Assembly (NCBI GenBank): GCA_963719085.1
Contig: CAVRAL010000001.1
Location: 992,001-1,056,000 of the forward strand
DNA from: a candidate division FCPU426 bacterium
Lineage (GTDB): Bacteria; Oederibacteriota; Muellerivitia; Muellerivitales; Muellerivitaceae
DNA: 64,000 bases
Direction: 5' to 3'
Under the pieces are notes generated by a model that was given only the letters and a program-made list of their open reading frames with translations, ran no database searches and was not told the origin of the DNA. Each line of letters opens with the position of its first letter. Positions within the stretch are counted from its first letter, which is position 1. Positions 20,654-43,166 of the stretch are shown one piece after another. The position numbers and the translations under genes are program-made.

Positions 20654-20834
20654 GGCCTCATCCCCATTTAAGCCGCTCAAGACGACTAGTTTCGCCTTCT
20701 TGTCCCAATGTCCGCCTTTTTTCAACTTGTCCGGGCGCCAGCCCTGTTTCGGGATCTCAAAAAGAGGGTTGATGGTCGAATATTTAATCAACATCGTTTC
20801 CCCCTTCCTCAAATCCAGACTTTGGTTTTTCCAC

Positions 20835-20877
20835 AAAATAAAAACGCGGGAAAGCGTCCCTGTCCACTTCCCCGCGC
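20835..20877 (-). terminator. Intrinsic terminator between sbp and the HPr-like gene
   Basis: Minus strand CGCGGGGAAGTG-GACAGGGA-CGCTTTCCCGCG followed by TTTTTATTTT. Confidence 0.7.
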
Positions 20878-22067: not shown

Positions 22068-22141
22068 TTTTCTCTCCTTGAGAATGTTCGGCCAATTAGA
22101 TCCTTCCGGAAGCCCTCGGGGCTCCCGGAAGAAATCCCGAA

Positions 22142-23455: not shown

Positions 23456-23521
23456 GATCTACCCCTTTAAATATAAATTTGTCCTCATTTAACGGCGCGG
23501 ACTTTCGCCGAAAAGGGACCC

Positions 23522-23755
23522 AAACAAAAAATCCCGGGTCCCGCTGGCTTCAGCGGACTCGGGATTAGGAAAAATTCCATAATCACTAAGACCGCTTTAG
23601 CGCCCAGTTCGCCTTTGCAGGCACGGTCGGGGCAAGTTGGTGGCGGATACGGACAAAGTCCGCAACCGCCCCGGGTGTGGTCCCATTCTTTCCGGGTCCA
23701 CGGGTATTCCGTATCTTTTTGGGATTCGGAATAACGCCGGTTAAAGCCTCACCGT
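23522..23755 (-). ncRNA. SAM-II-like riboswitch unit plus terminator (third in porin/sbp leader; ~100-nt multi-hairpin insertion)
   Basis: ACGGT-GAG-GCTTTAA ... CCAAC-TTGC-CCCG-ACCGT-GCCT(GCAA)AGGC-GAACTGGGC-GCTAAAGCGG; then terminator AATCCCGAGTCCGCTG-AAGC-CAGCGGGACCCGGGATT-TTTTGTTT. Confidence 0.7.
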
Positions 23756-23790
23756 TTCATCGATTGTTCAGAGGGGATTTTTGTTGGATG

Positions 23791-23986
23791 AAAACAAAAA
23801 TCCCGAACCACTTGGCTTAGAGCGGTTCGGGATTCGGGAAATTCTCGAATTCTTCACCGCTTTAGCCCCCAGTTTTTTTCGACCCCAATGACGGGCCAAA
23901 AACGGTCGGGGCAAGTTGGTCAATCCTCTTTCAAGGACCGTTGGAAAAGCCTTGTTCAGACTTTTCGCCAATTAAAGCCACACCGC
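23791..23986 (-). ncRNA. SAM-II-like riboswitch unit plus terminator (second in porin/sbp leader; ~50-nt insertion)
   Basis: GCGGT-GTG-GCTTTAA ... CCAAC-TTGC-CCCG-ACCGT ... AACTGGGG-GCTAAAGCGG; terminator AATCCCGAACCGCT-CTAAGCCA-AGTGGTTCGGGATT-TTTGTTTT. Confidence 0.7.
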
Positions 23987-24012
23987 TTGAAGCGAATGAC
24001 AAATCCAGGGTT

Positions 24013-24145
24013 AAAACAAAAAACCCGGGCCGCTTTAAAAGCGGTCCGGGTTTAGGGATTTCTCTCTAAATCGTCATTTCCGCTTTAGCTCGCTGTTCGG
24101 CTCTTTCGAGCCACGCCGGAGCAAGTTGAAACTTAAAGCCCGCGC
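24013..24145 (-). ncRNA. SAM-II-like riboswitch unit plus terminator (first in porin/sbp leader)
   Basis: GCGCGG-GCTTTAAGTTTCAAC-TTGC-TCCGGCGT-GGCTC(GAAA)GAGCC-GAACAGCGA-GCTAAAGCGG; terminator AAACCCGGACCGCTTT-T-AAAGCGGCCCGGGTTT-TTTGTTTT. Confidence 0.78.
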
Positions 24146-24156
24146 TTGATGTTGGA

Positions 24157-24185
24157 AATATAGCTCGCCACCGATTTCCTGTCAA
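24157..24185 (-). promoter_or_regulatory. Sigma70-type promoter for porin-sbp-cys leader
   Basis: TTGACA-17 nt-TATATT with AT-rich upstream tract, about 10 nt before the first riboswitch-like unit. Confidence 0.8.
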
Positions 24186-24202
24186 CCGAAATTATTTTTT
24201 TA

Positions 24203-24370
24203 TTATCCACCTACCGTTAAATCAAATCGCTTCTTTTTCAATCGGTTCAGGTGTCCCTCAAGCAGCTTTCGAATCCTCGAAAGTTCTTTCACCCATCGAA
24301 GCAGTGTCTCGCGGGAGAAGCCGCGATCCGATTTTCTTCCCAGCCGTTTAAAATTTTTCCTTTTCGGCAT
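24203..24370 (-). CDS. Possible small basic protein (55 aa) downstream of the cysteine desulfurase
   Basis: GGAG RBS, ATG at 24370 (MPKRKNFKRLGRK...), double TAA stop; no recognised homology. Confidence 0.3.
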   Translation of the reverse strand: MPKRKNFKRLGRKSDRGFSRETLLRWVKELSRIRKLLEGHLNRLKKKRFDLTVGG

Positions 24371-24401
24371 CTGGCTTCTCCCGACATCCGTATCCAAAAA
24401 A

Positions 24402-26324
24402 TCACCGAGCCGACGGAACCCTTCCCCCCACCAACCGACAAAGAGCGGACTCCAAGGCGTCCAAATCCTCGAAGGTGTTATAAAAGGCCAACGAAGCCCG
24501 AACGGTTCCCTCCAGCCCAAAACGACGCAGGATTGGCTGGGCGCAATGGTGCCCTGACCTGACCGCGATCCCTTCCTTATCCAACGCCTGTCCAATCTCC
24601 TCGTTCTTAAACCCATCGATCACAAACGATAGCACCCCGGCCTTTTCCGCGGCGTTGCCAATAATCCGCAATCCCGGGATGGCCTTTAGCTTTTGAGTCC
24701 CATAAACCAGCAGTTCATGCTCATGACGGGCCACATTCTCCAGCCCGACCCGATCCAGATAATCGAGCGCCGCGCCCAAACCCACCGCGTCGGCGATATT
24801 GCCGGTCCCGGCCTCAAATCGTCCGGGAGCAGGCTGGTAAAGGGTCTTCTCGAAAGTCACATCGGCGATCATGTTTCCCCCTCCCTGCCAGGGCTGGAAG
24901 GAATTTAAAAGAGCTTCCTTGCCGTGCAAAACCCCGATTCCCGTCGGCCCAAAAACCTTGTGACCCGAAAAAACATAAAAATCACTATCCAGCTCCGCCA
25001 CATTCACCCGGAGATGGGAAACCGCCTGGGCCCCATCCACCAATATTTTCGCACCATGGCGGTGGGCGATTTCAATCAACTGCTTCACCGGCGTCAACGT
25101 TCCCAAGGCGTTGGAAACTTGCGTCACCGAAACCAACTTCGTCTTGTCCGTTAAAAGTTTCTCGTACTCGTCGAGTAGGACCTGTCCCGAATCATCCACA
25201 GGAATGACCCGCAGTTTCGCGCCCTTGGCGGAGGCGAGATGCTGCCATGGAACGATATTGGCGTGGTGTTCGAGCCAGCTGACGATAATCTCGTCGCCCG
25301 CCCCGATGTTCTGCTCTCCCCAGGCCTTGGCCACCAGATTGATGGCCTCGGTGGCGCCCCGAACGAAAACAATTTCTTTCGCCGAAGAAGCCCCCAAAAA
25401 TCGCCGCGCTTTTTCTCGGGCCCCCTCGTAAGCGTCCGTAGCCCGGGCGGCCAGGGTATGGGCGGCGCGGTGAACGTTGGAATTCTCGTTGGCGTAAAAA
25501 TAATCCAACCGGTCAATGACGGTTTGGGGTTTTTGCGTGGTGGCCGCGTTGTCCAACCAAACCAAGGGCTTCCCGTTGATCTTCTGCCGCAGGATGGGAA
25601 AATCTTTTTTATACCAGGCCGCGTCAAAGACCGGACGCGGACCGCCCGAACTCAGGGGAGCCACCACTGGCGTAAAAGCATAAGGATCCGCCAAGACGGC
25701 CCCCGGTTCATTTCCGCCCTCCAAAAGAACCGATCCCGGCACGCCGCTCGTTCCCGCCGAAAAAATTTCAGAGGATGGCTGGGTCGACGCGGGGACGCTG
25801 TTTATCTGATCGGACACTTTGGATGGCGCCTCAGCCGGGGACTTCGCTTTTGGATTTTCCTCAAGTTTCAAATCCTCGGGAAAAACCGCCGGAAATGAAA
25901 AAGCCCTGCCATCCGTTCCGATCGGCAGCGCGGAACCGGAAAAAGGGTTCACCGTTTCCGAATGGGAACTGGGGGCGGAAAAAAAAGCCGACAACCCTAA
26001 ACCCGCCGGAATCCCGGCCAAAACCCCCGAGTCCAAGGGTTCGGTCAACAGTCCGGCCGGCGATGAAATCGGCGTGAAGGGCTGGAACGAGGCCAAACTG
26101 CCGGTGGGTCCTCCCGGAACCGGTGAGGGCGCCGCGATGGCCGGTGAAGGGCTTGAAACCACCGAGGGCAACGGCGGCTGCCCCGACAAAACAGAGCCCG
26201 CGGACGGCGTCGCCGGATGTCCCGGAACGGCCCTGAAAAACTCGTTGGCCAACTCGGTCAACAAGGCCGGATCCGGAGCCAAGGTCCCCCAAGAGGATTC
26301 AGGATTGGGGTTACTTGTAGTCAT
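24402..26324 (-). CDS. SufS-type (class II) cysteine desulfurase with ~230-aa disordered N-terminus: family 2A encapsulin cargo
   Basis: WLDNAATTQKP, VHRAAH, FSGHK (PLP Lys) and RSGHHCA motifs; P/S/G/A-rich N-terminal extension with LTELANEFF motif; ATG overlaps the end of the encapsulin gene. Confidence 0.93.
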   Translation of the reverse strand: MTTSNPNPESSWGTLAPDPALLTELANEFFRAVPGHPATPSAGSVLSGQPPLPSVVSSPSPAIAAPSPVPGGPTGSLASFQPFTPISSPAGLLTEPLDSGVLAGIPAGLGLSAFFSAPSSHSETVNPFSGSALPIGTDGRAFSFPAVFPEDLKLEENPKAKSPAEAPSKVSDQINSVPASTQPSSEIFSAGTSGVPGSVLLEGGNEPGAVLADPYAFTPVVAPLSSGGPRPVFDAAWYKKDFPILRQKINGKPLVWLDNAATTQKPQTVIDRLDYFYANENSNVHRAAHTLAARATDAYEGAREKARRFLGASSAKEIVFVRGATEAINLVAKAWGEQNIGAGDEIIVSWLEHHANIVPWQHLASAKGAKLRVIPVDDSGQVLLDEYEKLLTDKTKLVSVTQVSNALGTLTPVKQLIEIAHRHGAKILVDGAQAVSHLRVNVAELDSDFYVFSGHKVFGPTGIGVLHGKEALLNSFQPWQGGGNMIADVTFEKTLYQPAPGRFEAGTGNIADAVGLGAALDYLDRVGLENVARHEHELLVYGTQKLKAIPGLRIIGNAAEKAGVLSFVIDGFKNEEIGQALDKEGIAVRSGHHCAQPILRRFGLEGTVRASLAFYNTFEDLDALESALCRLVGGRVPSAR

Positions 26325-27234
26325 AGTATTGCGCCACATCGACGTCCTCGAGCACCGCCACCGCGTCATCGGTCAAAACAGCCAAGGAGCAGTAGAGGGA
26401 AATCAAATAAGACGCGATCGCTTTGCTGTCGATGCCCATGAACCGCACGGACAAACTGGGGCTGACTTCCCCCGGCAGTCCGGGCTGAAAAAGACCGATG
26501 ACCCCCTGTTTTTTCTCCCCGGTTCGGATGAGGAGAATATTCGTCTTGTTCTTTTCGTCGATCTTGACCTTATCGCTCGACACGATCGGGATTCCGCGCC
26601 AAGTCAAAAAGGGCGATCCAAACAAAGTCGTCGTCGGAGGCGGAACACCCCGGCGGGTGCATTCCCGCCCAAAGGCCGCCACGGCTTTGGGGTGGGCCAA
26701 AAAGAAAGAAGGCTCTTTCCAGACCTTCGTGATCAATTCGTCTAAATCGTCAGGCGTTGGGCGGCCCTGGCGGGTCTTGATCTTTTGCGAATCCAAGGCC
26801 GAATGGATCAGGCCGTATTCCTTGTTGTTGATCAACTCGCCTTCCTGGCGTTCCTTAACCCGTTCGATCAAAAGCCGCAATTGCTCCTGTATCTGGTCGA
26901 TCGGCTTGCTGTAAAGGTCGGAAACGCGGGTCTGCACATGCAGGACCGAGGTCACCGCGTTCAACCATAATTCTTTCGGGAACTCGTCGTAATTGACGAA
27001 GGTCTGGGGCAAATCGGCGTCTCCCCGCGGGCTGCATTCCACATCCGGTCCGTTGCTTTTATCTTTTACTTTATTCAGCCGGAAAATCCCCGATTCCACC
27101 GGCACCCATTGAAGAAATGGCACCAGCCACCGCGGCGTGATCCCCTCCCATTGGGCGTGTGTCTTCGTGACATTCGCCAACTGCGTGGCCGCGTTTTCTC
27201 CCAGCGTTCTGCGCACTTCTATTGATTCCGCCAT
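26311..27234 (-). CDS. Family 2A encapsulin shell protein (SrpI/major membrane protein I-like)
   Basis: AATQLANVTKT..QW..ITPRWL, LPQTFVNY, QLRLLIERVKERQE.EL, PTPDDLDELI.KVWKEP and ECTRRGVPPP motifs; 307 aa; upstream of a cysteine desulfurase. Confidence 0.93.
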   Translation of the reverse strand: MAESIEVRRTLGENAATQLANVTKTHAQWEGITPRWLVPFLQWVPVESGIFRLNKVKDKSNGPDVECSPRGDADLPQTFVNYDEFPKELWLNAVTSVLHVQTRVSDLYSKPIDQIQEQLRLLIERVKERQEGELINNKEYGLIHSALDSQKIKTRQGRPTPDDLDELITKVWKEPSFFLAHPKAVAAFGRECTRRGVPPPTTTLFGSPFLTWRGIPIVSSDKVKIDEKNKTNILLIRTGEKKQGVIGLFQPGLPGEVSPSLSVRFMGIDSKAIASYLISLYCSLAVLTDDAVAVLEDVDVAQYYDYK

Positions 27235-27290
27235 GACCGCCTCCCTGAATGAAATAGTTCGTCCACTACCGGCTCAACGTTTCATAAGAC

Positions 27291-27551
27291 TCAAAAACCG
27301 CTCCGACCGGCGCTTGGAAGATGGGTCGTGGTTTTAGCCCTGTTGACGGACCAATCCAATTCCGACTTCCCGGCCTTCCTGAAGCCATTCCTGAAATAGG
27401 CCCGCCAAACAATCCCCAGGCTTCCCAAAAACAGAATGGGACCGCTTTTAAAGCTCGAGGCCAAAAACCAAAGGGTCAGTCGCTTGGAAGCGACCAAGTC
27501 CCGCTCAATTTCCCGCCTCCACAAAATCAATTGCTTCGTTTCTGAATTCAT
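27291..27551 (-). CDS. Possible small hypothetical protein (86 aa) between riboswitch leader and encapsulin
   Basis: GGAGG RBS before ATG at 27551 (MNSETKQLILWRREIE...); one hydrophobic stretch; no recognised homology. Confidence 0.4.
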   Translation of the reverse strand: MNSETKQLILWRREIERDLVASKRLTLWFLASSFKSGPILFLGSLGIVWRAYFRNGFRKAGKSELDWSVNRAKTTTHLPSAGRSGF

Positions 27552-27572
27552 CTTTTCCTCCCGCGGCGGGAT

Positions 27573-27709
27573 AAAAAAAAATCCCAAACCGCCTGATACT
27601 CGCGGTTTGGGATTAGGGGAAAAACCCGATAATCTTCTTTCCGCTTTAGCGCCCTGTTGACCCCTCGCGGGGCACGGCCGGGGCAATTAGGTCAACAAAG
27701 CCTCGCCGG
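27573..27709 (-). ncRNA. SAM-II-like riboswitch unit plus terminator (second in encapsulin leader)
   Basis: CCGGC-GAG-GCTTTGTTGACCTAA-TTGC-CCCG-GCCG-TGCCCC(GCGA)GGGGTC-AACAGGGC-GCTAAAGCGG; terminator AATCCCAAACCGC...GCGGTTTGGGATT-TTTTTTT. Confidence 0.72.
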
Positions 27710-27767
27710 TATCCCGATTCTTGTGAAATCGGGAAAAAAGCATTGAATTTAAGGGTTTTTTGCCCAT

Positions 27768-27898
27768 AAACAAAAAACCCGGGCCGCTTTAAAAGCGGTC
27801 CGGGTTTAGGGATTTCTCTCTAACACGATCTTCGCCGCTTTAGCTCGCTGTTCGACCCGAAGGTCACGCCGGAGCAAGTTGGAACTTAAAGCCCGCGT
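27768..27898 (-). ncRNA. SAM-II-like riboswitch unit plus terminator (first in encapsulin leader)
   Basis: ACGCGG-GCTTTAAGTTCCAAC-TTGC-TCCGGCGT-GACC(TTCG)GGTC-GAACAGCGA-GCTAAAGCGG; same terminator as the unit at 24013-24145. Confidence 0.78.
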
Positions 27899-27911
27899 TT
27901 GAATCTTTTAA

Positions 27912-27939
27912 ATCCTACCACTCCCTTTCGGCATGTCAA
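27912..27939 (-). promoter_or_regulatory. Sigma70-type promoter for the encapsulin leader
   Basis: TTGACA-16 nt-TAGGAT with extended -10 TG, just upstream of the first unit. Confidence 0.7.
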
Positions 27940-28121
27940 CCGGAATTTTATTTTTATTTGATAATCTCTCCCGGCGAAGACAAGATGCTTTTTTCCGCGG
28001 TCCATAGACAAACGCCATTCCAAAATAAAAAACCGAGACTCCTGTAAATACAATGAAGTCCCGGTTTTCCAATTGCCTCGGCCATAGTTATTCGACGGAG
28101 GCCTATAGAATTTTAACCTGA

Positions 28122-29522
28122 TTAAAACAGCCAAAACCTTTTGTGACTGGAAGCCTTCAGCTTGTTCGAGTCCAATTCTTCCACCGGATTTTCCGAATGG
28201 GGCGTCCCGGCGGGAACCCAGTCATAAGGAACAGGCTGGGCCCGATAAACCCAGTTCACAATGATCCCCTGCCCGCTTTGGTCCCAACCATCATGGGCTT
28301 GGTTAACGTAGGGGTTGACATATTCCCAGACGATCTCCCCAGTCGGAGTCACTTGGAAAAACCGTCCATCCCGTCCCTCGTCGATCAGCGTATTACCATT
28401 GGGAAGCCTGCGGGCGCTGCTGATGAAATGGCTCTGGAAAGACCAAATGGGCCGACCGGAGTTCTCGCCCGTGTACTGCCAAACGATCTGCTTGGTCACC
28501 GGATTAATTTCCAAAACCCGGGATCCGCCAATCAAAGAAACCGGCGGCCATCCCGCGCTGCCCTGGTTGTCGAACACCAACAGGTCACCCGCGCCCGGCA
28601 AGCCTTCGGGAATGATATGGGCGTCATGTTGGCCGGAGATCTGGTCCACGGGCCGCGGCACTTTGGATCCCTTAACCGGCGGATAATCCGGTCCTTGGCG
28701 CCAAACGACCTTGCCTGTGTGCCGATCGATGATCACGATGAAATTAGCGTTGCGGGAATCAAGAAGGATATTATCCGGATTGAAGCGCTTGTCTCCCGCG
28801 TCAAACCAATGGTTCGGACCCACTACGTTGAACTTATTAATGGTCAAGAAGCCGCTGCCTTTTTGCGGCGCGTTGTCCCCTTGGTGAATTTGTTTTTTCA
28901 GGTAGGCGATCCCCGCCGGTGAAATGCCAAACTCGCTTAAGTGGTCTCCCGCCACCCATTTCCAGACGATTTTACCGTCCGGCGTCACTTCATAAATGGC
29001 TTGGTCGGCGATGTCTTGGTCGCCCAATTCCTTGATTTTGTGGACCACGGTGACATCCAGCAGCGTATTGCCGTTGGGCAGTCGGTGCCAGTCATGGTTC
29101 TGGCGGGCCGCCCCGCCCGGCGCTTGTTCGCCCCACTCCCAAACGGTTTTTCCGTCCCAGTCCAATTCCCCAACGGTTTTATTGTGGAAAATCCCGCCCC
29201 AAGTATCTTTGCCGTCCGAAGAAAGTTGGACCAGCACATGACCCAGCTTTCCGCCGGTGATTTTGGGATCCAGCAATTCACTGGGAAAACCCCAATGGTT
29301 CCATCGGTGGACCTCATTTCCATCCAAGTCAATCAGATGGGTATTTCCATCCGGGGCCCCGAAGAGTACATAGCTGTTATAGGCTTTGGCCGGATCGTAG
29401 ATCGTGGTTCCCGTCAGGTAAACCCGGGGTGCCGCCGACAATTCCCCCGTTCCGATGGCGGTCAAAAGAACGGCCGCCGGCAATATCAGATTCTTTTTTG
29501 AAAAAAATTGACACAGTCTCAT
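28122..29522 (-). CDS. Arylsulfate sulfotransferase (ASST) family protein, paralog 3
   Basis: Signal peptide; NHDWHRLPNGNTL, DSRNAN, GQHDAH, LLVFDN and SSARRLPNGNTLIDEG motifs. Confidence 0.88.
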   Translation of the reverse strand: MRLCQFFSKKNLILPAAVLLTAIGTGELSAAPRVYLTGTTIYDPAKAYNSYVLFGAPDGNTHLIDLDGNEVHRWNHWGFPSELLDPKITGGKLGHVLVQLSSDGKDTWGGIFHNKTVGELDWDGKTVWEWGEQAPGGAARQNHDWHRLPNGNTLLDVTVVHKIKELGDQDIADQAIYEVTPDGKIVWKWVAGDHLSEFGISPAGIAYLKKQIHQGDNAPQKGSGFLTINKFNVVGPNHWFDAGDKRFNPDNILLDSRNANFIVIIDRHTGKVVWRQGPDYPPVKGSKVPRPVDQISGQHDAHIIPEGLPGAGDLLVFDNQGSAGWPPVSLIGGSRVLEINPVTKQIVWQYTGENSGRPIWSFQSHFISSARRLPNGNTLIDEGRDGRFFQVTPTGEIVWEYVNPYVNQAHDGWDQSGQGIIVNWVYRAQPVPYDWVPAGTPHSENPVEELDSNKLKASSHKRFWLF

Positions 29523-29545
29523 TTTCTTATCCTTTTCTTAAAATT

Positions 29546-30994: not shown

Positions 30995-32369
30995 GGCTCA
31001 CCGCGTTCAATCCAAAGACATCCGGCTTGACGACGGCCTTTTCCGAATGGGGTGTTCCAACCGGAACCCATTCATAGGGCACCGGGATGGCCCGGTAAAC
31101 GTCATTGCTAATGATCGCGCTGCCGGTGGCGGAAAGCCTATTGACGTAGGGACTCACATATTCCCAAACAATCTCGCCCGTCGGCGTCACCTGGAAAAAC
31201 CGTCCATTCATACCTTCATCAATGAAGGTATTTCCATTGGGAAGACGCCTGGCATCGCTGATGAAATGGCTGCGGAAAGTCCAGGCCGGACGGCCCGAAT
31301 TTTCGGCCGTATATTGCCAAACGATTTCTTTTTTCACCGGGTCGATTTCCAGCACCCGGGAACCCGGGCCCGTCGCGACGGGCGGGTAACCGGCGCTTCC
31401 CTGGTTATCGAACACCAGCAAATCGCCCGCGCCTTGCAGTCCCTCCGGAATAATCTGGGCGTCATGCTGGCCCGAGATTTGGTCCACGGGCCGGGGCAAT
31501 TCGTCCTTCGGACTTACGGACAAACCCGCGGCTATTTTCAAGCGGGGATAATCTGGGCCTAATCCCCAAACCACCTTCCCGGATGGCTTGTCGATAATGA
31601 CGATGAAATTGGCGTTACGTGAATCCACGATGATGTTGTCAGGATTGAAACGTTGGTCTCCCGCCTCAAACCAATGGTTTTTTCCAACGACCTTCATGTC
31701 GTTGATGTGCAGGTAATCCACGTTCTTGCCGCGCGCGACGACCCCGCGCAGGTAGGCCAAGTCCGATGGGCTGAAACCAAACTCACTTAAATGATCTCCC
31801 GCCACCCAGGTCCAGGCGATCTTGCCGCCCGGCGTCACTTCGTAAATGACATCGTCCAAGACGTCCTGATCGGACAAAGCCTTAACCTTGTGGGTGAGGT
31901 GGGACAAAACCAGGGTGTCGCCATTGGGCAGACGGCCCCAGTCATGGTGCTGTTTGGCGGCCCCGCCGGGCGCCTCCGTTCCCCATTGCCAAACGGTTTT
32001 GCCGTCCCAGTCCAGCTCCCCAAGCACCTTGTTGTTGAAAAAACCCGTTTCAATCCCCGGGTCATTCTCGAGTTGGACGATCACATGGCCCGGTTGTCCG
32101 CCTGTTAAAGCGGGATCAAGCAACCCGGCCGGAAAAGCCACATGAGCCCAGGAATGGACCTCATGGCCGTCCAAATCGATTAAATGGGTCTTTCCATCCA
32201 ACGCCGAAAAAATCACATAGCTGTTATAGGCTTTGGCCGGATCGTAAATCGTCGTTCCCGTCTCAAAAACCGAAGGCGAGGCCAATCCCATACCAATCCC
32301 GGCCGCCCATAACAACGCCGGCATGGCCGAAATCTTCAATCTTTTTGAAAAAATTTTTTTCCAATCCAT
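30987..32369 (-). CDS. Arylsulfate sulfotransferase (ASST) family protein, paralog 1
   Basis: AAGGA RBS before ATG 32369; QHHDWGRLPNG, YLHIND, DSRNAN and GQHDAQ motifs. Confidence 0.9.
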   Translation of the reverse strand: MDWKKIFSKRLKISAMPALLWAAGIGMGLASPSVFETGTTIYDPAKAYNSYVIFSALDGKTHLIDLDGHEVHSWAHVAFPAGLLDPALTGGQPGHVIVQLENDPGIETGFFNNKVLGELDWDGKTVWQWGTEAPGGAAKQHHDWGRLPNGDTLVLSHLTHKVKALSDQDVLDDVIYEVTPGGKIAWTWVAGDHLSEFGFSPSDLAYLRGVVARGKNVDYLHINDMKVVGKNHWFEAGDQRFNPDNIIVDSRNANFIVIIDKPSGKVVWGLGPDYPRLKIAAGLSVSPKDELPRPVDQISGQHDAQIIPEGLQGAGDLLVFDNQGSAGYPPVATGPGSRVLEIDPVKKEIVWQYTAENSGRPAWTFRSHFISDARRLPNGNTFIDEGMNGRFFQVTPTGEIVWEYVSPYVNRLSATGSAIISNDVYRAIPVPYEWVPVGTPHSEKAVVKPDVFGLNAVSHE

Positions 32370-32482
32370 CGTCTTGTCCTTTTTAAGGAGAAGTATTTCC
32401 AGTGGACTGGTCAATTTTTCTCTTAGATTTCCAGGGAACCTTCGTCCCCCTTTATCGCCGTTGTCGGCGATCCGCTTCATTT

Positions 32483-32659
32483 TCAGCCGTTCTCGTCCTT
32501 CACCAACCGGATCCGCTCAATCTTGTCGATCTGCGTGATCCGGGAATTATGGACGGTGATTTGCACCGTCCCATAACGCATCCCCTTGATCGCCGCCAAT
32601 ATTTTTTGGACCAGTTGAACTTGTTCTTCTTCCGTCAAAAGCTCGTTCTTCGCCGACAT
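32483..32659 (-). CDS. YezD/DUF2292 (OscA-like) small sulfur-starvation protein, 58 aa, absent from the ORF track
   Basis: Translated by hand: MSAKNELLTEEEQVQLVQKILAAIKGMRYGTVQITVHNSRITQIDKIERIRLVKDENG; matches the RYGxVxIxVHxxxxxQIxxxExxR pattern; GGGGGA RBS. Confidence 0.85.
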   Translation of the reverse strand: MSAKNELLTEEEQVQLVQKILAAIKGMRYGTVQITVHNSRITQIDKIERIRLVKDENG

Positions 32660-32692
32660 AAAATCCCCCCCTTTCCACCGATAAACCTCAAC

Positions 32693-35068
32693 TTACAGAA
32701 TGTAAAAGCCCGCGCCCAGGTTGAATGTGGTGCCCACGTTCTCGTACACCGAGTAGTATTTCAGGTTGAAGATGTTATCCACCCCGGCCGAAATATTGCC
32801 GCCGTTAAACTTGTATTCAGCCTTGAAATTAAAGGTCGTGAAGGGATCAAAGCTCCCCTGCACGCCGTTGACCGTATCAGAGTTGTTCGAGGTGGTGTAA
32901 CGCTTGGACTGATAGGTTCCTGAGAGGGAAACCAACCAATCTTGCGGCGTGAAATCCACCCCAAAGTTCACCTCATCCGCCGGGATATTCGGCACCTGGT
33001 GCCCGACCGAAGTCGGCTGGGCCGCGTTAACCGTGATCTTGTCATCCAAATGGGTGTAGTTCCCGAAGACATCAAAATCCGCATTCACCTTTTGTTTTAA
33101 TTCCGTCTCAATGCCGTTGATTTGCGCTTGGCCCGCGTTGAAGTACTGCGTGATGGTGGTCACGCCCGCAGTCGAGGTGTCGGCGTAAATCAAATTGGTG
33201 AGCGCGTTGTTGAAATAAGTGGCCGAAACGGTTGTTTGGGTCGGCAGCTCATATTCCCCGCCGATTTCCCACGCCGTATCCAGTTCCGGCTTGAGGTTGG
33301 GATTGGGAATAGTCTCGGTGTTGGTGCCTGACGAGAAGAGGTAAAGCTCGCCCGAGGTCGCGGGGTTAAAAGCCTGCCCCCAAGAAGCGCGCAAGCTGCC
33401 GTTTTGGTCCACTTTGTAAACCAAGCTGACCTTCGGGGTCACTTGGTCAAAGCTGACCGTGGGATAGGTCACTTCCGTCGACAGTAGTGTATTGTAAATT
33501 TTTCCGTCGGCGGAAATCCAATGGTCCCAACGGGCCCCCAAAAAGGCTGTCAAGGAGGGGAAAATTTTCCATTGGTCCTGCGCGAAAAGCGAGTCCGTGG
33601 TCTCGTTGTCCCCGTTGCCTTGGCTGGTATTCTCAACGAAATCGTTGATATCCGTCCAATTGGCGAAGGTGACGTTGTAGCTGGTGAAGGCCGCGTAGTC
33701 CCAATTGAACCCCACGATCACTTCATGGTTATCCAGCTTTTGATCGGCCTGGATGTTCGCGAATCCTTCCCAATCGGCCTCCATGTCCGTTCCCGTGCCG
33801 GTTCCGGAGAAAGGAGTCGTGGCCGCCGGAAGGGCCGACTCGGCGATATGCAAAGGTCCGGCCGTCCAAGCGAAACTGCCCGTCAGGTTTAAATCCGCGT
33901 TCTCTTTGCCCTTGTATTGCAGGTAGGACCCGAAGAAACCGTTCTTCCCCGGCGCCGTCAAGAACTGCGATTGATTAACGCTGATGTTTTGTCCCGTTCC
34001 CGCCAGGGACACCGAACCGTTCAACACCGTGGCCGGGGCGCCGGTCGTGGCGTCCTTCAGGTAAGAGGTCCCGATTTGTCCCGTCGGGTTGGTGTTCGGC
34101 TGGTCCCAATAGGAATAATTGAGAAGCAGCGTGAAGATCTGGTCCTTATCGGGCGTGAAGTACAACTTACCCGTATAGTTGTTATTCTCCTGAACCGTCC
34201 GGGCGATCTCCCCGATGTTATAAAGAACGGTGGTTCCGCTGTTGTTCGTCGTTTGATTAAAGCCAGTCACCACTTCGGTGGGGGTCAACCCGGTTTTAGC
34301 CGCGGCTTGGACGAACTGATGGTCCGTGTATCCATCGATTCCGGTATTTTGAAAGCCGAAATAATAGGCGAACAAATCGTTGGGCTTATTCTCGTAGCTG
34401 ATATTGGTGGTGCGCACATTGGCGCTGTTCCAATCCTCGCTGAAATTGAAGCTCTCACCCTCGGGTTCCTTGGTGATTACGTTAATGACCCCGCCCACCG
34501 CGTTTTTACCCCACAAGGCGGAAAAAGGCCCCCGGACCACTTCCACGTGGTCCACCAATTGGGAGGGAATCCGGTTCCAGAAAACCCTTTCGTTGCCCAA
34601 CTGATTCAGCTCAAAACCATCCAGCAAAGCGAGGTTCTTTTCATATCCGGGAATCCCCCGCAAAGAAACCGTGACACCCTGGCTGCCCTCACCACCCGAG
34701 CGGTCAACCTCGACCCCCGGTAAGCCGGTCAAGGCATCGTCAAAAAATCCGATATCCTTTTTGGCCAGATCGTCTTTGGTGATGACTGAAATAGCCGCCG
34801 GCGAGTCCAGAATTTTTAATTTACTTTTGGTCCCGGTGATCACAACGGCGTTCAAGTCGTAATTCGGAGCCGTGGTCCCGGAAGCCGGGGCCAAATTGGC
34901 GGCCACCGGAGTTTGCGCCGTGGCGGTCGTGACGTCCGCGTCAGGAGCCGCCGCGGCGTCACCTGCCCCCGTATCCGGATCCGGAGTAGGGGTTGATTCC
35001 GCCCCCACCCAGGACGAAAGTCCTAAAAATAAACCCGCGGTCAAAACGAATGAAAATAACTTAGACAT
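32693..35068 (-). CDS. TonB-dependent outer-membrane receptor
   Basis: Signal peptide (ATG 35068, GAGG RBS); TonB box AVVITGTK; plug motifs VSLRG and VEVVRGPFSALWGKNAVGGVINVITK; LKPE; aromatic C-terminal strand. Confidence 0.93.
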   Translation of the reverse strand: MSKLFSFVLTAGLFLGLSSWVGAESTPTPDPDTGAGDAAAAPDADVTTATAQTPVAANLAPASGTTAPNYDLNAVVITGTKSKLKILDSPAAISVITKDDLAKKDIGFFDDALTGLPGVEVDRSGGEGSQGVTVSLRGIPGYEKNLALLDGFELNQLGNERVFWNRIPSQLVDHVEVVRGPFSALWGKNAVGGVINVITKEPEGESFNFSEDWNSANVRTTNISYENKPNDLFAYYFGFQNTGIDGYTDHQFVQAAAKTGLTPTEVVTGFNQTTNNSGTTVLYNIGEIARTVQENNNYTGKLYFTPDKDQIFTLLLNYSYWDQPNTNPTGQIGTSYLKDATTGAPATVLNGSVSLAGTGQNISVNQSQFLTAPGKNGFFGSYLQYKGKENADLNLTGSFAWTAGPLHIAESALPAATTPFSGTGTGTDMEADWEGFANIQADQKLDNHEVIVGFNWDYAAFTSYNVTFANWTDINDFVENTSQGNGDNETTDSLFAQDQWKIFPSLTAFLGARWDHWISADGKIYNTLLSTEVTYPTVSFDQVTPKVSLVYKVDQNGSLRASWGQAFNPATSGELYLFSSGTNTETIPNPNLKPELDTAWEIGGEYELPTQTTVSATYFNNALTNLIYADTSTAGVTTITQYFNAGQAQINGIETELKQKVNADFDVFGNYTHLDDKITVNAAQPTSVGHQVPNIPADEVNFGVDFTPQDWLVSLSGTYQSKRYTTSNNSDTVNGVQGSFDPFTTFNFKAEYKFNGGNISAGVDNIFNLKYYSVYENVGTTFNLGAGFYIL

Positions 35069-35215
35069 TGCTAACCTCGCATCAATTTGATGAGCAACGC
35101 CAGTGGACTGGAAGTTACCGAATTTTTTCACTTCGTTACCGAGCGGAAGTCCGCGCCGTTTAAAATAACCACAAAACCAATGCCCCTTCTGCCAACCCGC
35201 CATAAGCTCCTTCGC

Positions 35216-35794
35216 TCAATTCAGCTGGAACAAAATCGGAAGCGTCACTTCACAGGCCACCGGCGCGCCGTTCGCGTCGCAAGCCGGGGTGAAAATGCCG
35301 GCCTTGACCTTTCGGATCGCGAATTCATTCAAAACCTCGTAAGTTCCCTTCAGCAGCCGAACCTCCTGAACCAGCCCCTGGGCGTCAATGTGGAGCAGAA
35401 GCACCACCCGGCCGTCGCTGCCCGACTGGCGGGCCACCGAGGGATAATCGTCCGGATCAATCAAATTCCCCACCCAACGGGGCTTGCGAGAGGTCTGCGA
35501 TTCGGGCACCCAAACCGTCTGCGATTGGACCGGTTCCAGATGTACTTTTTCCGGAACGACTTTCTCGGCGGCCTGGTGCCCTTTTTTCGGCAAGGTCCAT
35601 TTAAAAGGCGGCTGGGTCACAACCGGGTTCATTTCCAGGTCCGTGATGACGACCGAGCGATGCGCGAAAAACAACAGGTACAAGATCAAGAACAAAGCCG
35701 TGTGGACCAAAATGGAAAGGCTAGTTCCCGCCGCCAAGGGCTCTCCCCAGAACTGCGCGAAACCGGCTTTATTTGTCAGAGACAAGTGCGACAT
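35216..35794 (-). CDS. tonB: Energy transducer TonB
   Basis: TM segment SILVH; C-terminal YPSVARQ...GRVVLLLHID..G.V..V and FTPA motifs; follows exbD. Confidence 0.88.
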   Translation of the reverse strand: MSHLSLTNKAGFAQFWGEPLAAGTSLSILVHTALFLILYLLFFAHRSVVITDLEMNPVVTQPPFKWTLPKKGHQAAEKVVPEKVHLEPVQSQTVWVPESQTSRKPRWVGNLIDPDDYPSVARQSGSDGRVVLLLHIDAQGLVQEVRLLKGTYEVLNEFAIRKVKAGIFTPACDANGAPVACEVTLPILFQLN

Positions 35795-36170
35795 GGTCGA
35801 CCCCCGCTTGTTTAATCACATCTAAAGCCGACACCACCTGCTGGTAAGGCAATCTACTGTCCGCCGCCAGCGTGATTCGAACCCCCGGATTTTCCGCCAC
35901 CTCCTGGGCCAGCGCGGTCTTCAGTGCAGCCAAGTCCGTCTTGTCTTTTCTCAAGTAAACTTGGCCCTTGTCGTCGATGGAAACAGAAAGGGTCGGAGCC
36001 GCCGGACTGTCCCCCGTTTCGGTTTTCGGCAAATTGATCTTGAGGCTCGCCTCCGACACGAAAGTTCCCGCCACCATGAAAATAATCAAAAGTACCAGCA
36101 TGATGTCCACCATCGGGGTGACATTGATGCCGGTCACCGTGCCATCTTCTTCGATATAATTTGAGCTCAT
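35769..36170 (-). CDS. exbD: Biopolymer transporter ExbD
   Basis: INVTPMVDIMLVLLIIFMV and AD..LPYQ.VV..LD motifs. Confidence 0.93.
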   Translation of the reverse strand: MSSNYIEEDGTVTGINVTPMVDIMLVLLIIFMVAGTFVSEASLKINLPKTETGDSPAAPTLSVSIDDKGQVYLRKDKTDLAALKTALAQEVAENPGVRITLAADSRLPYQQVVSALDVIKQAGVDHVALVSDK

Positions 36171-36225
36171 GGTCCCCCTCTTTCTTCTTCACTTTTTTAA
36201 CGGCTTAACTCCCGGCTCAACTTCA

Positions 36226-36915
36226 TCAAGAAACGGCCGCCGGATGCCGTCCCTCCACTTTTTGCTGGCTCTTGATGGCGCGGCGCAAAAGTCCCTCACT
36301 CTCATCCCGGAGATAAACCTGAAGCAGATGGATCAGGCTTTGGGTATTCGCGATCTTTTTGCGCAAACTGGTTTGGAAAACGTTGTTGGCCACCACCGCC
36401 GGAATCGCCACGAAAATCCCGAAGGCTGTGGCGATGAGCGCCGAGGAAATGCCCGCCATCACCACCGAAACTCCGGAGTTGCCGCTGACCGCCAGGTCAT
36501 TGAAAGCCTTGATGATTCCCAGCACTGTCCCCAAAAGTCCGACAAAGGGGGCGTTGTTGCCCAGGGTTCCCAAGATGATGAGGTGTTTTTCCAACCGGTT
36601 TCGCTCAAGCACCAGGCGGGAAGTCATGGCCTCTTCCACCGAAGCGTAGCCCTTATGCAGATGGGTCAATCCCGCCAAGGCCACATGGGCTTCCACACCG
36701 GAAGCTTTTTTCACCGTTTCTTTCGCTCCGTTTAAATTCCCCTTTTCGAGGAAATCCGAAAGCTTGTCCAAAAGCTGGGAGAAATCCACCGCGCTGGCCT
36801 TAAATACCCGCCAACGCTCAAAAATCACACCCAAGGAAAGCACGCTGGCGGCCACCAGCGTCCACAAGGCCCAAACATCCCCGGCCAAAGCCAGTTTTTT
36901 GAATAGTTCCGTCAT
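36226..36915 (-). CDS. exbB: MotA/TolQ/ExbB proton channel
   Basis: LGTLGNNAPFVGLLGTVLGII and GISSALIATAFGIFVAIPA motifs; AGGAG RBS before ATG 36915. Confidence 0.92.
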   Translation of the reverse strand: MTELFKKLALAGDVWALWTLVAASVLSLGVIFERWRVFKASAVDFSQLLDKLSDFLEKGNLNGAKETVKKASGVEAHVALAGLTHLHKGYASVEEAMTSRLVLERNRLEKHLIILGTLGNNAPFVGLLGTVLGIIKAFNDLAVSGNSGVSVVMAGISSALIATAFGIFVAIPAVVANNVFQTSLRKKIANTQSLIHLLQVYLRDESEGLLRRAIKSQQKVEGRHPAAVS

Positions 36916-36957
36916 AAGTCCGCTCCTTTTAGGTCTTGCCCGAAAAAACCGGGCTGA

Positions 36958-37103
36958 CAACAAAAAACCCGAACCGCTTTCAAACGGTTCGGGTCATGAA
37001 ATAAATCATTGCCTTCAAACCGCTTTAGTTCCCGATTCGCCCAAGGGTTGAAACCTCAAACCTTGGAGCCGGCTGGGGGCAAGTTGGTACTTAAATCCCG
37101 CCG
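36958..37103 (-). ncRNA. SAM-II-like riboswitch unit plus terminator (third in exbB leader)
   Basis: CGGCGG-GATTT-AAGTACCAAC-TTGC-CCCCA-GCCG-[CCAAGG..CCTTGG hairpin]-GAATCGGGA-ACTAAAGCGG; terminator ACCCGAACCGTTT-G-AAAGCGGTTCGGGT-TTTTTG. Confidence 0.72.
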
Positions 37104-37117
37104 TAAAAATAATCCGT

Positions 37118-37258
37118 AAAAAAAAAATCCCAAAACCACTTCTTGTTGAAGCGGGTTGGGATTCCGGATCGTCCGATAATCTTGTTCCGCTTTAGCGCCC
37201 TGTTTATCCCCTCTCGGGGGATACGGCCGGGGCAAGTAGGTCAACAAAGCCTCGCCGG
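37118..37258 (-). ncRNA. SAM-II-like riboswitch unit plus terminator (second in exbB leader)
   Basis: CCGGC-GAG-GCTTTGTTGACCTAC-TTGC-CCCG-GCCG-TATCCCCC(GAGA)GGGGATA-AACAGGGC-GCTAAAGCGG; terminator AATCCCAACCCGCTTC-AACAA-GAAGTGGTTTTGGGATT plus T-run. Confidence 0.75.
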
Positions 37259-37355
37259 TGTTCCAATCCTCCCAAAATTCATCAGCCGGAGGTTGAAACC
37301 ACACCCGCTTCGATTCGGAGCGGGAAAAAGCTTAAATTTAAGGGTTTTTCGCCAT

Positions 37356-37486
37356 AAACAAAAAACCCGGGCCGCTTTAAAAGCGGTCCGGGTTTAGGGA
37401 TTACTCTCTAACTCGTTCGACACCGCTTTAGCTCACTGTTCGACCCGAAGGTCACGCCGGAGCAAGTTGGAACTTAAAGCCCGCGC
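37356..37486 (-). ncRNA. SAM-II-like riboswitch unit plus terminator (first in exbB leader)
   Basis: GCGCGG-GCTTTAAGTTCCAAC-TTGC-TCCGGCGT-GACC(TTCG)GGTC-GAACAGTGA-GCTAAAGCGG; terminator identical to those at ~24030 and ~27790. Confidence 0.78.
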
Positions 37487-37499
37487 TTGATGCTTTTGA

Positions 37500-37528
37500 A
37501 ATTTATTTCAATCGACGAAAAATGTCAA
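37500..37528 (-). promoter_or_regulatory. Sigma70-type promoter for the exbBD-tonB-receptor-ASST leader
   Basis: TTGACA-17 nt-TAAATT with AT-rich upstream tract. Confidence 0.75.
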
Positions 37529-37554
37529 CACGAAAAATAAATATATTTTTCAAT

Positions 37555-38283: not shown

Positions 38284-38285
38284 CC

Positions 38286-42652: not shown

Positions 42653-42657
42653 CCGGA

Positions 42658-42903: not shown

Positions 42904-42960
42904 GGCGCCCTCGAAATTTTAAAAGAAGGAATAAAAACTAGAAGCTTTAACAAAACCTAA

Positions 42961-43139: not shown

Positions 43140-43166
43140 TGCCTTTGAATTTTGGTAAATGGCCTC

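What the first reader, a model, noticed from the sequence alone, without database searches (positions are those of the whole stretch)
23522..37486. Eight SAM-II-like pseudoknot riboswitch units in tandem arrays (3+2+3), each with its own terminator, heading three sulfur-scavenging operons
Seen: eight minus-strand units share the order P1-G(C/A)TTT-...C(A/T)A(C/A)-TTGC-P1'-hairpin-(G)AA..-(G/A)CTAAAGCGG, then a GC stem with a U tract. P1 covaries (CGC/GCG, CGGC/GCCG, ACGGT/ACCGT). The TTGC flank covaries with the 3' strand (GCTC/GAGC versus GCCCC/GGG(C)GC). The inserted hairpin changes sequence but mostly keeps stable tetraloops (GAAA, TTCG, GCGA, GAGA, GCAA). Known: the SAM-II H-type pseudoknot has L1 GAUUU, UUGC pairing with GCUAA, and usually acts singly on translation; triple tandem riboswitches are rare. 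Inference: a variant SAM-II class used as stacked transcriptional OFF switches, giving a steep response so that costly import and storage systems are made only under strong sulfur starvation. The ligand is inferred, not shown.
Basis: partly seen in the sequence, partly recalled or inferred. Interest (0 to 1): 0.93.

Follow-up and report, generated by a model that had tools for sequence, protein, structure and literature searches.

The report
Extended SAM-II-like riboswitch in tandem arrays
These are stacked RNA switches, a longer form of a known type that senses the methyl donor SAM and one that standard RNA libraries miss, which probably shut off sulfur-uptake genes when the cell has enough sulfur; the sensed molecule is inferred, not measured.

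Summary
Observation confirmed: eight minus-strand units (3+2+3), each with a terminator and each array just behind a sigma70-like promoter; a ninth unit lies elsewhere in the genome. The units belong to a family found in 28 of 30 same-family genomes and in other phyla, which no Rfam model detects at threshold. Stems covary. The four nucleotides that contact SAM in the SAM-V crystal structure are kept in register, but the pseudoknot helix and its third strand are longer, and the A before UUU is usually C. The aptamer's 3' end pairs with the terminator's 5' arm (95 of 108; controls 52 of 241), which predicts a ligand-OFF antiterminator switch. Downstream genes serve sulfate/sulfonate uptake and Cys/Met synthesis, never metK (0 of 147). 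One translational variant follows a true SAM-I/IV riboswitch. Verdict: new variant of the SAM-II/SAM-V superfamily; SAM about 80%. Corrections: SAM-II is mostly transcriptional, doublets with terminators are known, and three units steepen the response only modestly (81- to 32-fold). The scan earlier noted tandem canonical SAM-II before cysH/cysG in another genome.

The parts
37500..37528 (-). sigma70-like promoter of array A (TTGACA-17-TAAATT)
   Evidence: 10 of 12 consensus matches; consensus match only
37358..37486 (-). unit A1: aptamer 37486-37423, antiterminator arm CCGC at 37386, terminator with U tract from 37365
   Evidence: 68.5 bits with model R1
37118..37257 (-). unit A2: aptamer 37257-37187, CCGC at 37154, terminator with U tract 37127-37118
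   Evidence: 79 bits
36960..37103 (-). unit A3: aptamer 37103-37020 (GAUUU type, extra C and C-A mismatch beside the pocket, possibly weakened), CCGU at 36987, terminator
   Evidence: 52.5 bits
35216..36915 (-). exbB (36915-36226), exbD (36170-35769), tonB (35794-35216)
   Evidence: Pfam PF01618, PF02472, PF03544; exbB start
32693..35068 (-). TonB-dependent receptor
   Evidence: PF00593, PF07715
32483..32659 (-). YezD / DUF2292 small protein
   Evidence: PF10055
28122..32369 (-). three arylsulfotransferase-family genes (32369-30987, 30994-29546, 29522-28122)
   Evidence: PF05935, PF14269
27912..27939 (-). sigma70-like promoter of array B (TTGACA-16-TAGGAT, TG before the second hexamer)
27770..27898 (-). 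unit B1: aptamer 27898-27835, CCGC at 27798, terminator; 94% identical to A1
27574..27708 (-). unit B2: aptamer 27708-27641, CCGC at 27605, terminator
27291..27551 (-). 86-codon ORF with no Pfam family, first ORF after array B; may not be a gene
26311..27234 (-). family 2A (SrpI-like) encapsulin shell
   Evidence: NF041162 above cut-off; PF19307
24402..26369 (-). family 2A encapsulin cargo cysteine desulfurase (longest ORF extent)
   Evidence: NF041166 above cut-off
24157..24185 (-). sigma70-like promoter of array C (TTGACA-17-TATATT)
   Evidence: best hit of the region, 11 of 12
24016..24145 (-). unit C1: aptamer 24145-24080, CCGC at 24044, terminator; 87-88% identical to A1/B1
23793..23988 (-). 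unit C2: aptamer 23988-23857 with a 59-nt segment (two hairpins) between UUU and UUGC, CCGC at 23825, terminator
23524..23755 (-). unit C3: aptamer 23755-23592 with a 107-nt segment (three hairpins) between UUU and UUGC, CCGC at 23556, terminator
22142..23455 (-). porin O/P-family protein
   Evidence: PF07396
17539..22067 (-). sbp (22067-21042), HPr-like ORF (20836-20372), cysT (20340-19498), cysW (19490-18576), cysA (18579-17539)
   Evidence: NF008022, TIGR01003, TIGR02139, TIGR02140, TIGR00968
14928..17147 (-). cysD-cysN read as one ORF; 392 nt after cysA, co-transcription with array C not shown
   Evidence: NF003587, TIGR02034
44859..44979 (-). canonical SAM-I riboswitch (the only one found in this genome), before a thrC-like gene, a small ORF and cysK; context, not part of the arrays
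   Evidence: RF00162, 83.6 bits

Best explanation
Each unit is a complete transcription-terminating riboswitch whose aptamer is an extended member of the SAM-II/SAM-V H-type pseudoknot family and most likely binds S-adenosylmethionine. Shown by sequence: P1, a six-pair lower P2 with bulges, a two-pair CC/GG cap, a P3 hairpin followed by AA, and a terminator whose 5' arm is complementary to the aptamer's last bases (AAGCGG). Inferred: without SAM, the 3' strand is free as it leaves the polymerase, pairs with the terminator's 5' arm before the 3' arm is made, and transcription reads through. With SAM, the G(A)GG(C/A)UUU strand docks in the P2 major groove and locks AAAGCGG into the triplex and cap, so the terminator forms (OFF). 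Two or three such decisions in series after one promoter lower the SAM level at which the operon shuts and multiply the repression, with only a modest gain in steepness. SAM then serves as a proxy for sulfur sufficiency and gates a sulfur-starvation regulon (outer-membrane uptake, sulfate ABC transport, arylsulfotransferases, encapsulin/desulfurase, peroxiredoxin, homocysteine synthase).
For: Ligand core, in SAM-V numbering (Huang & Lilley): U47 (adenine), A50 (aminoacyl), U9 and U20 (sulfonium) and U10, U19, G21, C46, A48, A49 are present in 109 of 109 distinct model-aligned rows, U8 in 103 of 109; the L1 strand was not part of any search pattern. C at position 18 and GCUAAAG match the Rfam SAM_alpha consensus. 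On four true SAM-II loci (11 kb) the best hit of model R1 is the SAM-II aptamer of L287, in register, with gaps at the extra L1 and P2 bases (9.8 bits, E 0.06). A translational variant in L116 scores 23.1 bits against SAM_V and sits directly behind a SAM-I/IV riboswitch (62.7 bits) and its terminator, before the same gene. Covariation on 62 units: 98.2% of cells paired, 69 two-sided changes against 24 in shuffles (0 of 500), slid controls 29-56% paired. Platform: terminator in 108 of 122 units, complement in its 5' arm in 95 of 108 against 52 of 241 control terminators; antiterminator in the nascent-RNA fold in 103 of 107; CCGY at +20 to +44 in 285 of 314 against 78 of 300. Promoters: TTGAC before 65 of 97 first or single units and 0 of 53 internal units. 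Genes: porin 38, peroxiredoxin 21, metY 17, exbB 11, yezD 7 of 147 arrays, plus sbp, cysK, cysD, cysH, sulfite reductase, dsrE, ssuA, metH; metH also follows L299 and L300.
Against: No binding or transcription data. No unit reaches any Rfam SAM model's threshold. The base before UUU is A in all three Rfam consensus lines but C in 242 of 314 units; U8 is G in 22 of 314. metK follows 0 of 147 arrays, and metK and metH of this genome carry no unit. The genome also has a SAM-I riboswitch, a co-occurrence not seen in 2007, although mixed tandems were reported later. In 6 units with AAACGG the terminator arm is not compensated (A opposite C). In full-length folds the terminator arm pairs downstream with probability 0.99-1.0 in all 8 window units whether or not the aptamer strand is blocked, so the switch needs co-transcriptional kinetics. 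14 of 122 units had no U-tract terminator. The 3' half and UUGC were fixed by the search patterns for most units, the P1 parser required three pairs, and relatives are not independent.
Confidence: 0.8

Rival explanations
1. Same fold and OFF platform, but the dominant C7 subtype (GCUUU) has changed specificity to another sulfur-status metabolite (for example SAH, methylthioadenosine, decarboxylated SAM, APS/PAPS or a Cys-derived compound), while the A7 subtype (GAUUU) binds SAM. Arrays that mix the two (such as A1/A2 with A3) would then be two-input gates.
For: Regulon dominated by sulfate/sulfonate uptake, with metK at 0 of 147. A7 in 3 of 3 metH-linked units and 3 of 3 units before the gene that also has SAM-I/IV, but C7 in 54 of 74 porin, 35 of 41 peroxiredoxin and 19 of 20 exbB units. 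SAM-I exists in the same genome. Ligand-switching variants of other classes are in print (search listings only: PMC10853860, PMC9295807).
Against: All four direct SAM contacts, including the two uridines that select the sulfonium charge, are invariant in the aligned rows; position 7 is not named as a ligand contact in the text read. The carbonyl pocket should disfavour anionic APS/PAPS and neutral SAH (inference). C7 also precedes metY in 35 of 40 units. The A7/metH link rests on 3 related genomes.
Confidence: 0.12
2. The conserved fold is a binding site for a protein or another trans factor (for example the co-encoded YezD) that controls the antiterminator, not a small-molecule aptamer.
For: yezD is the first recognised gene after 7 of 147 arrays; the full-length fold always favours the terminator, which a protein could overcome.
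Against: The conserved bases are those of the SAM pocket in SAM-II/SAM-V; the same aptamer is also used with a Shine-Dalgarno platform (L114-L116, L027, L204, L258) and in tandem with SAM-I/IV; single units occur in distant phyla before metY and metH.
Confidence: 0.04
3. The terminators are constitutive or only weakly coupled attenuators and the aptamers act otherwise (mRNA stabilisation, or small RNAs released by termination), as partly found for S. meliloti metA.
For: PMC9373788 (passages) describes a SAM-II followed by a terminator not predicted to respond to SAM; full-length folds favour termination; 6 AAACGG variants are uncompensated.
Against: The complement sits at a near-fixed distance (21-37 nt in 114 of 121 units with a complement), in 88% of terminators against 22% of controls; the pair flanking GCGG/CCGC is Watson-Crick in 104 of 285 against a shuffled mean of 78 and maximum of 101 in 2000 shuffles. 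Three constitutive terminators in series would leave the operons almost silent.
Confidence: 0.04

Closest known systems
SAM-II riboswitch (Rfam RF00521 SAM_alpha; RF01726 SAM-II long loop)
   Same: H-type pseudoknot with UUU third strand, UUGC / GCUAAA core, C before UUGC and G after UAAA in the RF00521 consensus; usually terminator-linked; model R1 aligns in register on a true SAM-II.
   Different: Lower P2 has about three more pairs (CCCG / C-A-GGG-N) and L1 is 2-3 nt longer; the base before UUU is C in 77%; a P3 hairpin occupies the second loop in 299 of 309 units; segments of 43-134 nt occur between UUU and UUGC in 17 of 120 units; not detected by either model.
SAM-V riboswitch (Rfam RF01826; PDB 6FZ0, Huang & Lilley 2018, PMC6061858)
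   Same: Order P1 - third strand - P2 - P1' - P3 hairpin - AA - P2'; U47, A50, U9, U20 in register; nt 14/15 pair with the 3' tail. Rare members of the new family end in ACUAAAAAGG(AG) just before an AUG, like SAM-V.
   Different: SAM-V has four lower P2 pairs and a 7-nt third strand and acts on translation; here about six pairs with bulges, an 8-9-nt strand, C7 and C18, and transcription termination in most units. Best SAM_V score 23.1 bits against a cut-off of 41.
Pseudo-cooperative tandem riboswitches (Sherlock et al. 2022, PMC9481103)
   Same: Complete aptamer-plus-terminator units in series sensing one ligand; SAM-II doublets (44), SAM-II/SAM-V pairs (149) and SAM-II with SAM-I/IV are listed; triplets are listed for SAM-I (1), c-di-GMP-I (12), FMN (4) and others.
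   Different: No SAM-II triplet appears in the passages read. Here 94 of 203 distinct arrays are tandem and 20 are triples, several occur per genome, and the subtype depends on position (CGC-type P1 in 36 of 42 first units, the other type in 41 of 42 last units).
SAM-I (S-box) control of sulfur assimilation
   Same: SAM used as a proxy for sulfur status through a terminator/antiterminator OFF switch (own knowledge of B. subtilis S-box genes; tandem SAM before ssuA-C is listed in PMC12452182).
   Different: Unrelated fold; this genome has one SAM-I and nine units of the new variant.

Membership tests
SAM-II (RF00521 / RF01726) | Scores above the Rfam gathering threshold | tested here: not met
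   No hit in the window, none at E<=10 on array A or on unit B2 alone, none at the units in genome searches (150 of 634 and 150 of 1109 candidates scored), 0 of 61 phylum genomes for RF01726, none at units in 20 related loci.
SAM-II (RF00521 / RF01726) | H-type pseudoknot with P1 enclosing the third strand and the 5' strand of P2 | tested here: met
   P1 and the distal P2 pair covary; 98.2% of cells paired.
SAM-II (RF00521 / RF01726) | GAUUU third strand | tested here: not met
   A before UUU in 56 of 314 units, C in 242; in the window only A3 has GAUUU.
SAM-II (RF00521 / RF01726) | UUGC pairing with GCUAA around a bulged U | tested here: met
   7 of 8 window units; A3 has ACUAA. Fixed by the search pattern for most relatives; among 56 of 320 profile hits that match neither pattern, UUG and UAAA are kept in the complete ones, with one C46-to-A change (L139) and one degenerate 3' half (L117).
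SAM-II (RF00521 / RF01726) | P1' follows UUGC after 1-2 nt and the second loop is unstructured | tested here: not met
   Four nt (CCCG/UCCG) intervene and pair with the 3' strand; P3 hairpin in 299 of 309.
SAM-V (RF01826) | Scores above the gathering threshold (41 bits) | tested here: not met
   0 matches at E<=10 in the genome (140 of 140 candidates scored); 23.1 bits for the L116 variant.
SAM-V (RF01826) | P3 hairpin and AA stack after P1 | tested here: met
   Hairpin in 299 of 309; AA in 109 of 109 aligned rows (AA was in the search pattern).
SAM-V (RF01826) | Shine-Dalgarno sequence in the 3' tail; translational control | tested here: not met
   All 8 window units have terminators; only rare relatives (L114-L116, L027, L204, L258) are translational.
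SAM-II/SAM-V superfamily (shared binding site) | U47 (adenine), A50 (aminoacyl), U9 and U20 (sulfonium) in register, with U-A-U triples | tested here: met
   Contacts from PMC6061858; present in 8 of 8 window units and 109 of 109 aligned rows. That the triples form is inferred.
SAM-II/SAM-V superfamily (shared binding site) | Binds SAM and rejects SAH | not testable with these tools
   Needs in-line probing or ITC.
SAM-II/SAM-V superfamily (shared binding site) | Precedes Met/Cys/SAM or sulfur genes | tested here: met
   metY 17, metH 1, cysK, cysD, cysH, sbp, porin 38, peroxiredoxin 21 of 147 arrays; metK 0.
Pseudo-cooperative tandem riboswitch | Each aptamer has its own expression platform, in one transcript from one promoter | tested here: met
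   Terminator plus antiterminator in 8 of 8; promoter consensus only before first units. One transcript is inferred.
Pseudo-cooperative tandem riboswitch | Units have similar ligand sensitivity and give a steeper dose-response | not testable with these tools
   Units within an array differ (39-62% identity) and A3 looks weakened; the ideal gain is 81- to 32-fold.

The most novel reading that the evidence does not exclude
The C7 (GCUUU) form is a new riboswitch class that uses the SAM-II/V scaffold to sense a different sulfur-status metabolite, and arrays that mix C7 and A7 units in a fixed order are multi-input logic gates that serve as the main sulfur-starvation regulator of an uncultured bacterial family.
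Probability: 0.12. Interest if true: 0.88.

Novelty: new variant of a known kind. Interest (0 to 1): 0.6.

Why it matters
It adds a structurally distinct, Rfam-invisible branch to the SAM-II/SAM-V superfamily, with intermediates that link the two classes (terminator and Shine-Dalgarno platforms, with and without P3, 52-nt minimal forms). It shows how far the RNA triple helix around the pocket can be extended while the contacts stay fixed. It is also an unusually heavy natural use of stacked riboswitches (94 of 203 arrays tandem, 20 triples, up to 12 units in one genome), with position-specific subtypes, which makes the question of what stacking buys (steepness, threshold or tightness) directly testable. 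It suggests that this uncultured lineage runs much of its sulfur-starvation response through RNA. If the C7 form has a different ligand, it would be a new riboswitch class.

Tried and rejected
Rfam scans for an existing family: none at the units; the hits are terminator hairpins or chance. Watson-Crick pairing of GCUUU with AAAGC as an alternative helix was considered and rejected as the conserved structure: A7, U7 and G8 variants keep AAAGC unchanged, which fits a third-strand role; it could still form in the unbound RNA. A mobile repeat or array artefact was rejected: units covary, lie only before sulfur-related or unassigned genes, and the reversed-pattern control found 0 matches in 101 genomes. 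Four of 126 pattern hits (L026, L055:501, L060, L075) lacked the 5' half and were dropped as chance before the counts; L060 still enters the relaxed count as unassigned. The four-unit array L017 is a double count of one unit (corrected). The sequence-based terminator scan listed only 2 of the 8 terminators (A3, C2) because of bulges; folding found all 8. Weak R1 hits in the genome (C4:223475, C4:963137; under 20 bits) lack the motif order. RNA-seq: no RNA holder was listed. Literature: six searches listed no paper whose title or abstract start describes this variant; the library lacks most subscription papers, and I did not read the supplements of Weinberg 2010 (SAM-II long loops) or Sherlock 2022 (list of tandem SAM-II), which may bear on novelty. 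A search on YezD/DUF2292 gave nothing useful. Look-ups of earlier scan notes by sequence and by relatives returned nothing.

Full report
Observation. The window holds eight copies of CTAAAGCGG, all on the minus strand, in three clusters of 3, 2 and 3. The 3.04-Mb genome has 26 copies; 9 are units and 17 are background, or about 0.04 expected in 14 kb of one strand. The ninth unit, G000:C4:903789, precedes a peroxiredoxin. A covariance model built here (R1) finds these nine at E below 1e-6 and nothing else above 20 bits (150 of 1643 candidates scored). The three best sigma70 matches in 22000-39000 lie 12-14 nt upstream of the first unit of each array, so each transcript probably starts almost at P1. 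Units A1, B1 and C1 are 87-94% identical including the terminator and A2/B2 77%, whereas units within one array are 39-62% identical.

Genes. Array A precedes exbB, exbD, tonB, a TonB-dependent receptor, yezD and three arylsulfotransferase-family genes. Array B precedes an 86-codon ORF, a family 2A encapsulin and its cargo cysteine desulfurase. Array C precedes a porin, sbp, an HPr-like ORF and cysT, cysW, cysA, with cysD-cysN 392 nt further on. The homologous encapsulin of Synechococcus is induced by sulfate starvation (PMC8049743, abstract and outline); a storage role is not established there.

Family. A strict pattern matched 28 of 30 same-family genomes, with 0 hits for the reversed control in 101 genomes; R1 found units in 35 of 99 genomes of the phylum, up to 12 per genome. 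A scan of species-representative genomes gave 60 loci, whose titles name mostly Elusimicrobia/Elusimicrobiota MAGs and unclassified bacteria, with 'Candidatus Firestonebacteria', two Acidobacteria and one Persephonella. R1 found units in 6 of 141 genomes of the phylum of an Elusimicrobia-labelled genome and in 4 of 61 of the class of an Acidobacteria-labelled genome (both samples include the seed genomes). After dropping 4 chance hits, 120 of 122 distinct units parse as P1 - G(A)GG(C/A)UUUAA - variable - CCAAC UUGC CCCG - P1' - P3 - GAAC A GGG N GC U AAA GCGG. The 5' half was in no search pattern.

Structure. On an alignment of 62 of the 98 compact units, the pseudoknot has 98.2% of cells paired and 69 two-sided changes against 24 +/- 3 in shuffles (0 of 500); slid partners give 29-56% paired. 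Three of four P1 pairs and the distal P2 pair (G-C 55, G-U 3, A-U 2, U-A 2) change on both sides. The parser required three P1 pairs, but the fourth, not required, is paired in 117 of 120. In the UCCG subtype the bulge in lower P2 shifts by two positions, which accounts for the 14 unpaired cells at one column. P3 folds in 299 of 309 units, and GAAA is its commonest loop (73). Relatedness inflates all such counts.

Relation to SAM-II and SAM-V. No Rfam model reaches threshold on a unit. In the SAM-V structure (PMC6061858, parts 2 and 3 of 5 read) U47 pairs with the adenine, A50 with the aminoacyl end, U9 and U20 face the sulfonium, a P3 hairpin and stacked As follow P1, and nt 14/15 pair with the 3' tail. 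All of these have counterparts here: U9, U10, U19, U20, G21, C46, U47 and A48-A50 are present in 109 of 109 distinct rows of the model-fitted alignment (the 150 best of 223 hits), U8 in 103. Most of these rows were found by patterns that fix the 3' half; among the 56 of 320 profile hits that match neither pattern the core is also kept, apart from one C46 change, one degenerate copy and truncated ones. The Rfam SAM_alpha consensus has C before UUGC and G after UAAA, as here. R1's best hit in 11 kb around four true SAM-II riboswitches is one of them, in register, with gaps where the new family has extra L1 and P2 bases; the score is weak (9.8 bits, E 0.06) and two of the four were not hit. Bridging forms exist: units ending in ACUAAAAAGG just before an AUG (L114-L116), translational last units in tandem arrays (L027, L204, L258) and 52-nt forms without P3 (L119, L120). 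In L116 such a unit (SAM_V 23.1 bits, cut-off 41) follows a true SAM-I/IV riboswitch (62.7 bits) and its terminator. The differences from both classes are about three extra pairs in lower P2, a third strand 1-3 nt longer, C instead of A before UUU in 242 of 314 units, and long hairpin insertions in the turn (17 of 120).

Mechanism. 108 of 122 units have a U-tract terminator, and in 95 of these the 5' arm carries the complement of the aptamer's last bases, against 52 of 241 other terminator-like hairpins of this genome with CCGC in the 5' arm or loop. The nascent RNA up to that arm folds into the antiterminator in 103 of 107 units (-10.9 to -18.8 kcal/mol in this genome), but the full-length RNA favours the terminator with or without the aptamer strand blocked; the windows for this fold were chosen around the complement, so the count is partly circular. 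The switch must therefore be kinetic: antiterminator first unless ligand has locked AAAGCGG in the pseudoknot, in which case termination follows. Against a strict requirement, 6 AAACGG variants keep CCGC. For n identical independent units the 10-90% range is 81, 40 and 32-fold and the midpoint 1, 0.41 and 0.26 K, so stacking mainly lowers the threshold and multiplies repression. Arrays are ordered: the CGC-type P1 is first in 36 of 42 and the other type last in 41 of 42, and TTGAC precedes 65 of 97 first or single units but 0 of 53 internal ones. Over all loci, 305 distinct units form 203 arrays: 109 single, 74 double and 20 triple (60/52/16 among the 128 with both flanks known).

Ligand. Of 147 arrays with enough downstream DNA (56 too short), the first recognised gene is a porin in 38, peroxiredoxin 21, metY 17, exbB 11, yezD 7, an unknown 144-aa protein 7, ABC ATPase 6, dsrE 5, with single cysK, cysD, cysH, sulfite reductase, ssuA and metH, and 8 unassigned; metK follows none (labels). 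Two more metH-linked units came. metK and metH of this genome have no unit within 200 nt upstream, and its one SAM-I riboswitch heads a thrC-like/cysK operon 7.4 kb from array A. SAM is the best reading (0.8). A changed ligand for the C7 subtype is not excluded: A7 marks 3 of 3 metH-linked units and the 3 units before the gene shared with SAM-I/IV, while C7 dominates uptake genes, but also metY (35 of 40).

What is known. SAM-II is mostly terminator-linked (PMC2258182, passages; PMC6061858; S. meliloti metZ in PMC9373788, passages). Sherlock et al. (PMC9481103, passages and section 11) list 44 SAM-II doublets, mixed SAM-II with SAM-I/IV, and triplets of several other classes, but no SAM-II triplet in the passages read; PMC12452182 (passages) calls three SAM riboswitches in a row exceptional. 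SAM-II long loops is a Bacteroidetes/marine variant (PMC2864571, passages; supplement not read). PMC10907184 and PMC8632094 (passages) added nothing on this variant. Six literature searches listed no description of it; the original SAM-II and SAM-V papers were not read.

Verdict. Real, conserved, structured and not in Rfam: a new extended variant of the SAM-II/SAM-V superfamily used in known pseudo-cooperative fashion, but unusually often and in triples. It is not a member of RF00521, RF01726 or RF01826 as defined, but very probably works like them. Interest 0.6.

Noticed in passing
window 35100-35111 and 32399-32410 (- strand): The 12-mer CCAGTCCACTGG (a 4-bp hairpin) occurs only twice in the whole genome, just before the TonB-dependent receptor and just after yezD; related copies lie between riboswitch arrays and start codons in several relatives (L012, L013, L129, L196, L226, L240, L273). 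It may be a second, protein-bound control site of the sulfur regulon, possibly for YezD (inference).
   Followed up: partly
window 14928-17147 (- strand), junction near 16270: cysD and cysN read as one 739-aa ORF, but a CysD-like C-terminus ([11 protein letters not shown], stop) lies in another frame at the junction, and relatives L119 and L132 have two genes; the fusion may be a one-base frameshift or an assembly error.
   Followed up: partly
window 20372-20836 (- strand): An HPr-family ORF sits between sbp and cysT (TIGR01003 above cut-off); small ORFs at the same place in L132 and L133 were not identified. HPr inside a sulfate ABC operon is unexpected.
   Followed up: partly
window 44859-44979 and 41025-44809 (- strand): The genome's only SAM-I riboswitch heads a thrC-like gene, a small ORF that looks like a ThiS/MoaD sulfur carrier (by eye, not scanned), a ThiF-like gene and cysK; a moeB-like gene (37555-38283) lies just before array A. 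This looks like a sulfur-carrier route to Cys/Met.
   Followed up: partly
L116:94-348 (G002:C4:209893-210142): SAM-I/IV riboswitch plus terminator followed by a translational unit of the new family, before a TPR-containing protein of unknown function; shorter homologues in L114 and L115 keep only the second unit.
   Followed up: yes
L010:1509, L015:1509, L020:1509, L023:3303, L050:4162, L053:3009: Last units of the GAUUU type before porin genes have the hairpin but no U tract, followed by a shared GACCCC element; they may use another platform.
   Followed up: no
L030, L048, L302: In Acidobacteria-labelled genomes a single unit precedes a conserved ~95-aa protein with no Pfam family; a candidate new sulfur or SAM gene.
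   Followed up: partly
L042:3867-4211, L044:3555-3986, L011:710-1603: Unknown 115-aa and 144-aa proteins and a DUF3034 protein recur directly behind double arrays (3, 7 and 4 arrays); likely sulfur-starvation proteins.
   Followed up: partly
G000:C4:903781-903889 (L001:8781-8890, - strand): Ninth unit, single, with a long insertion, before a peroxiredoxin; this gene has double arrays in 15 of 21 cases.
   Followed up: yes
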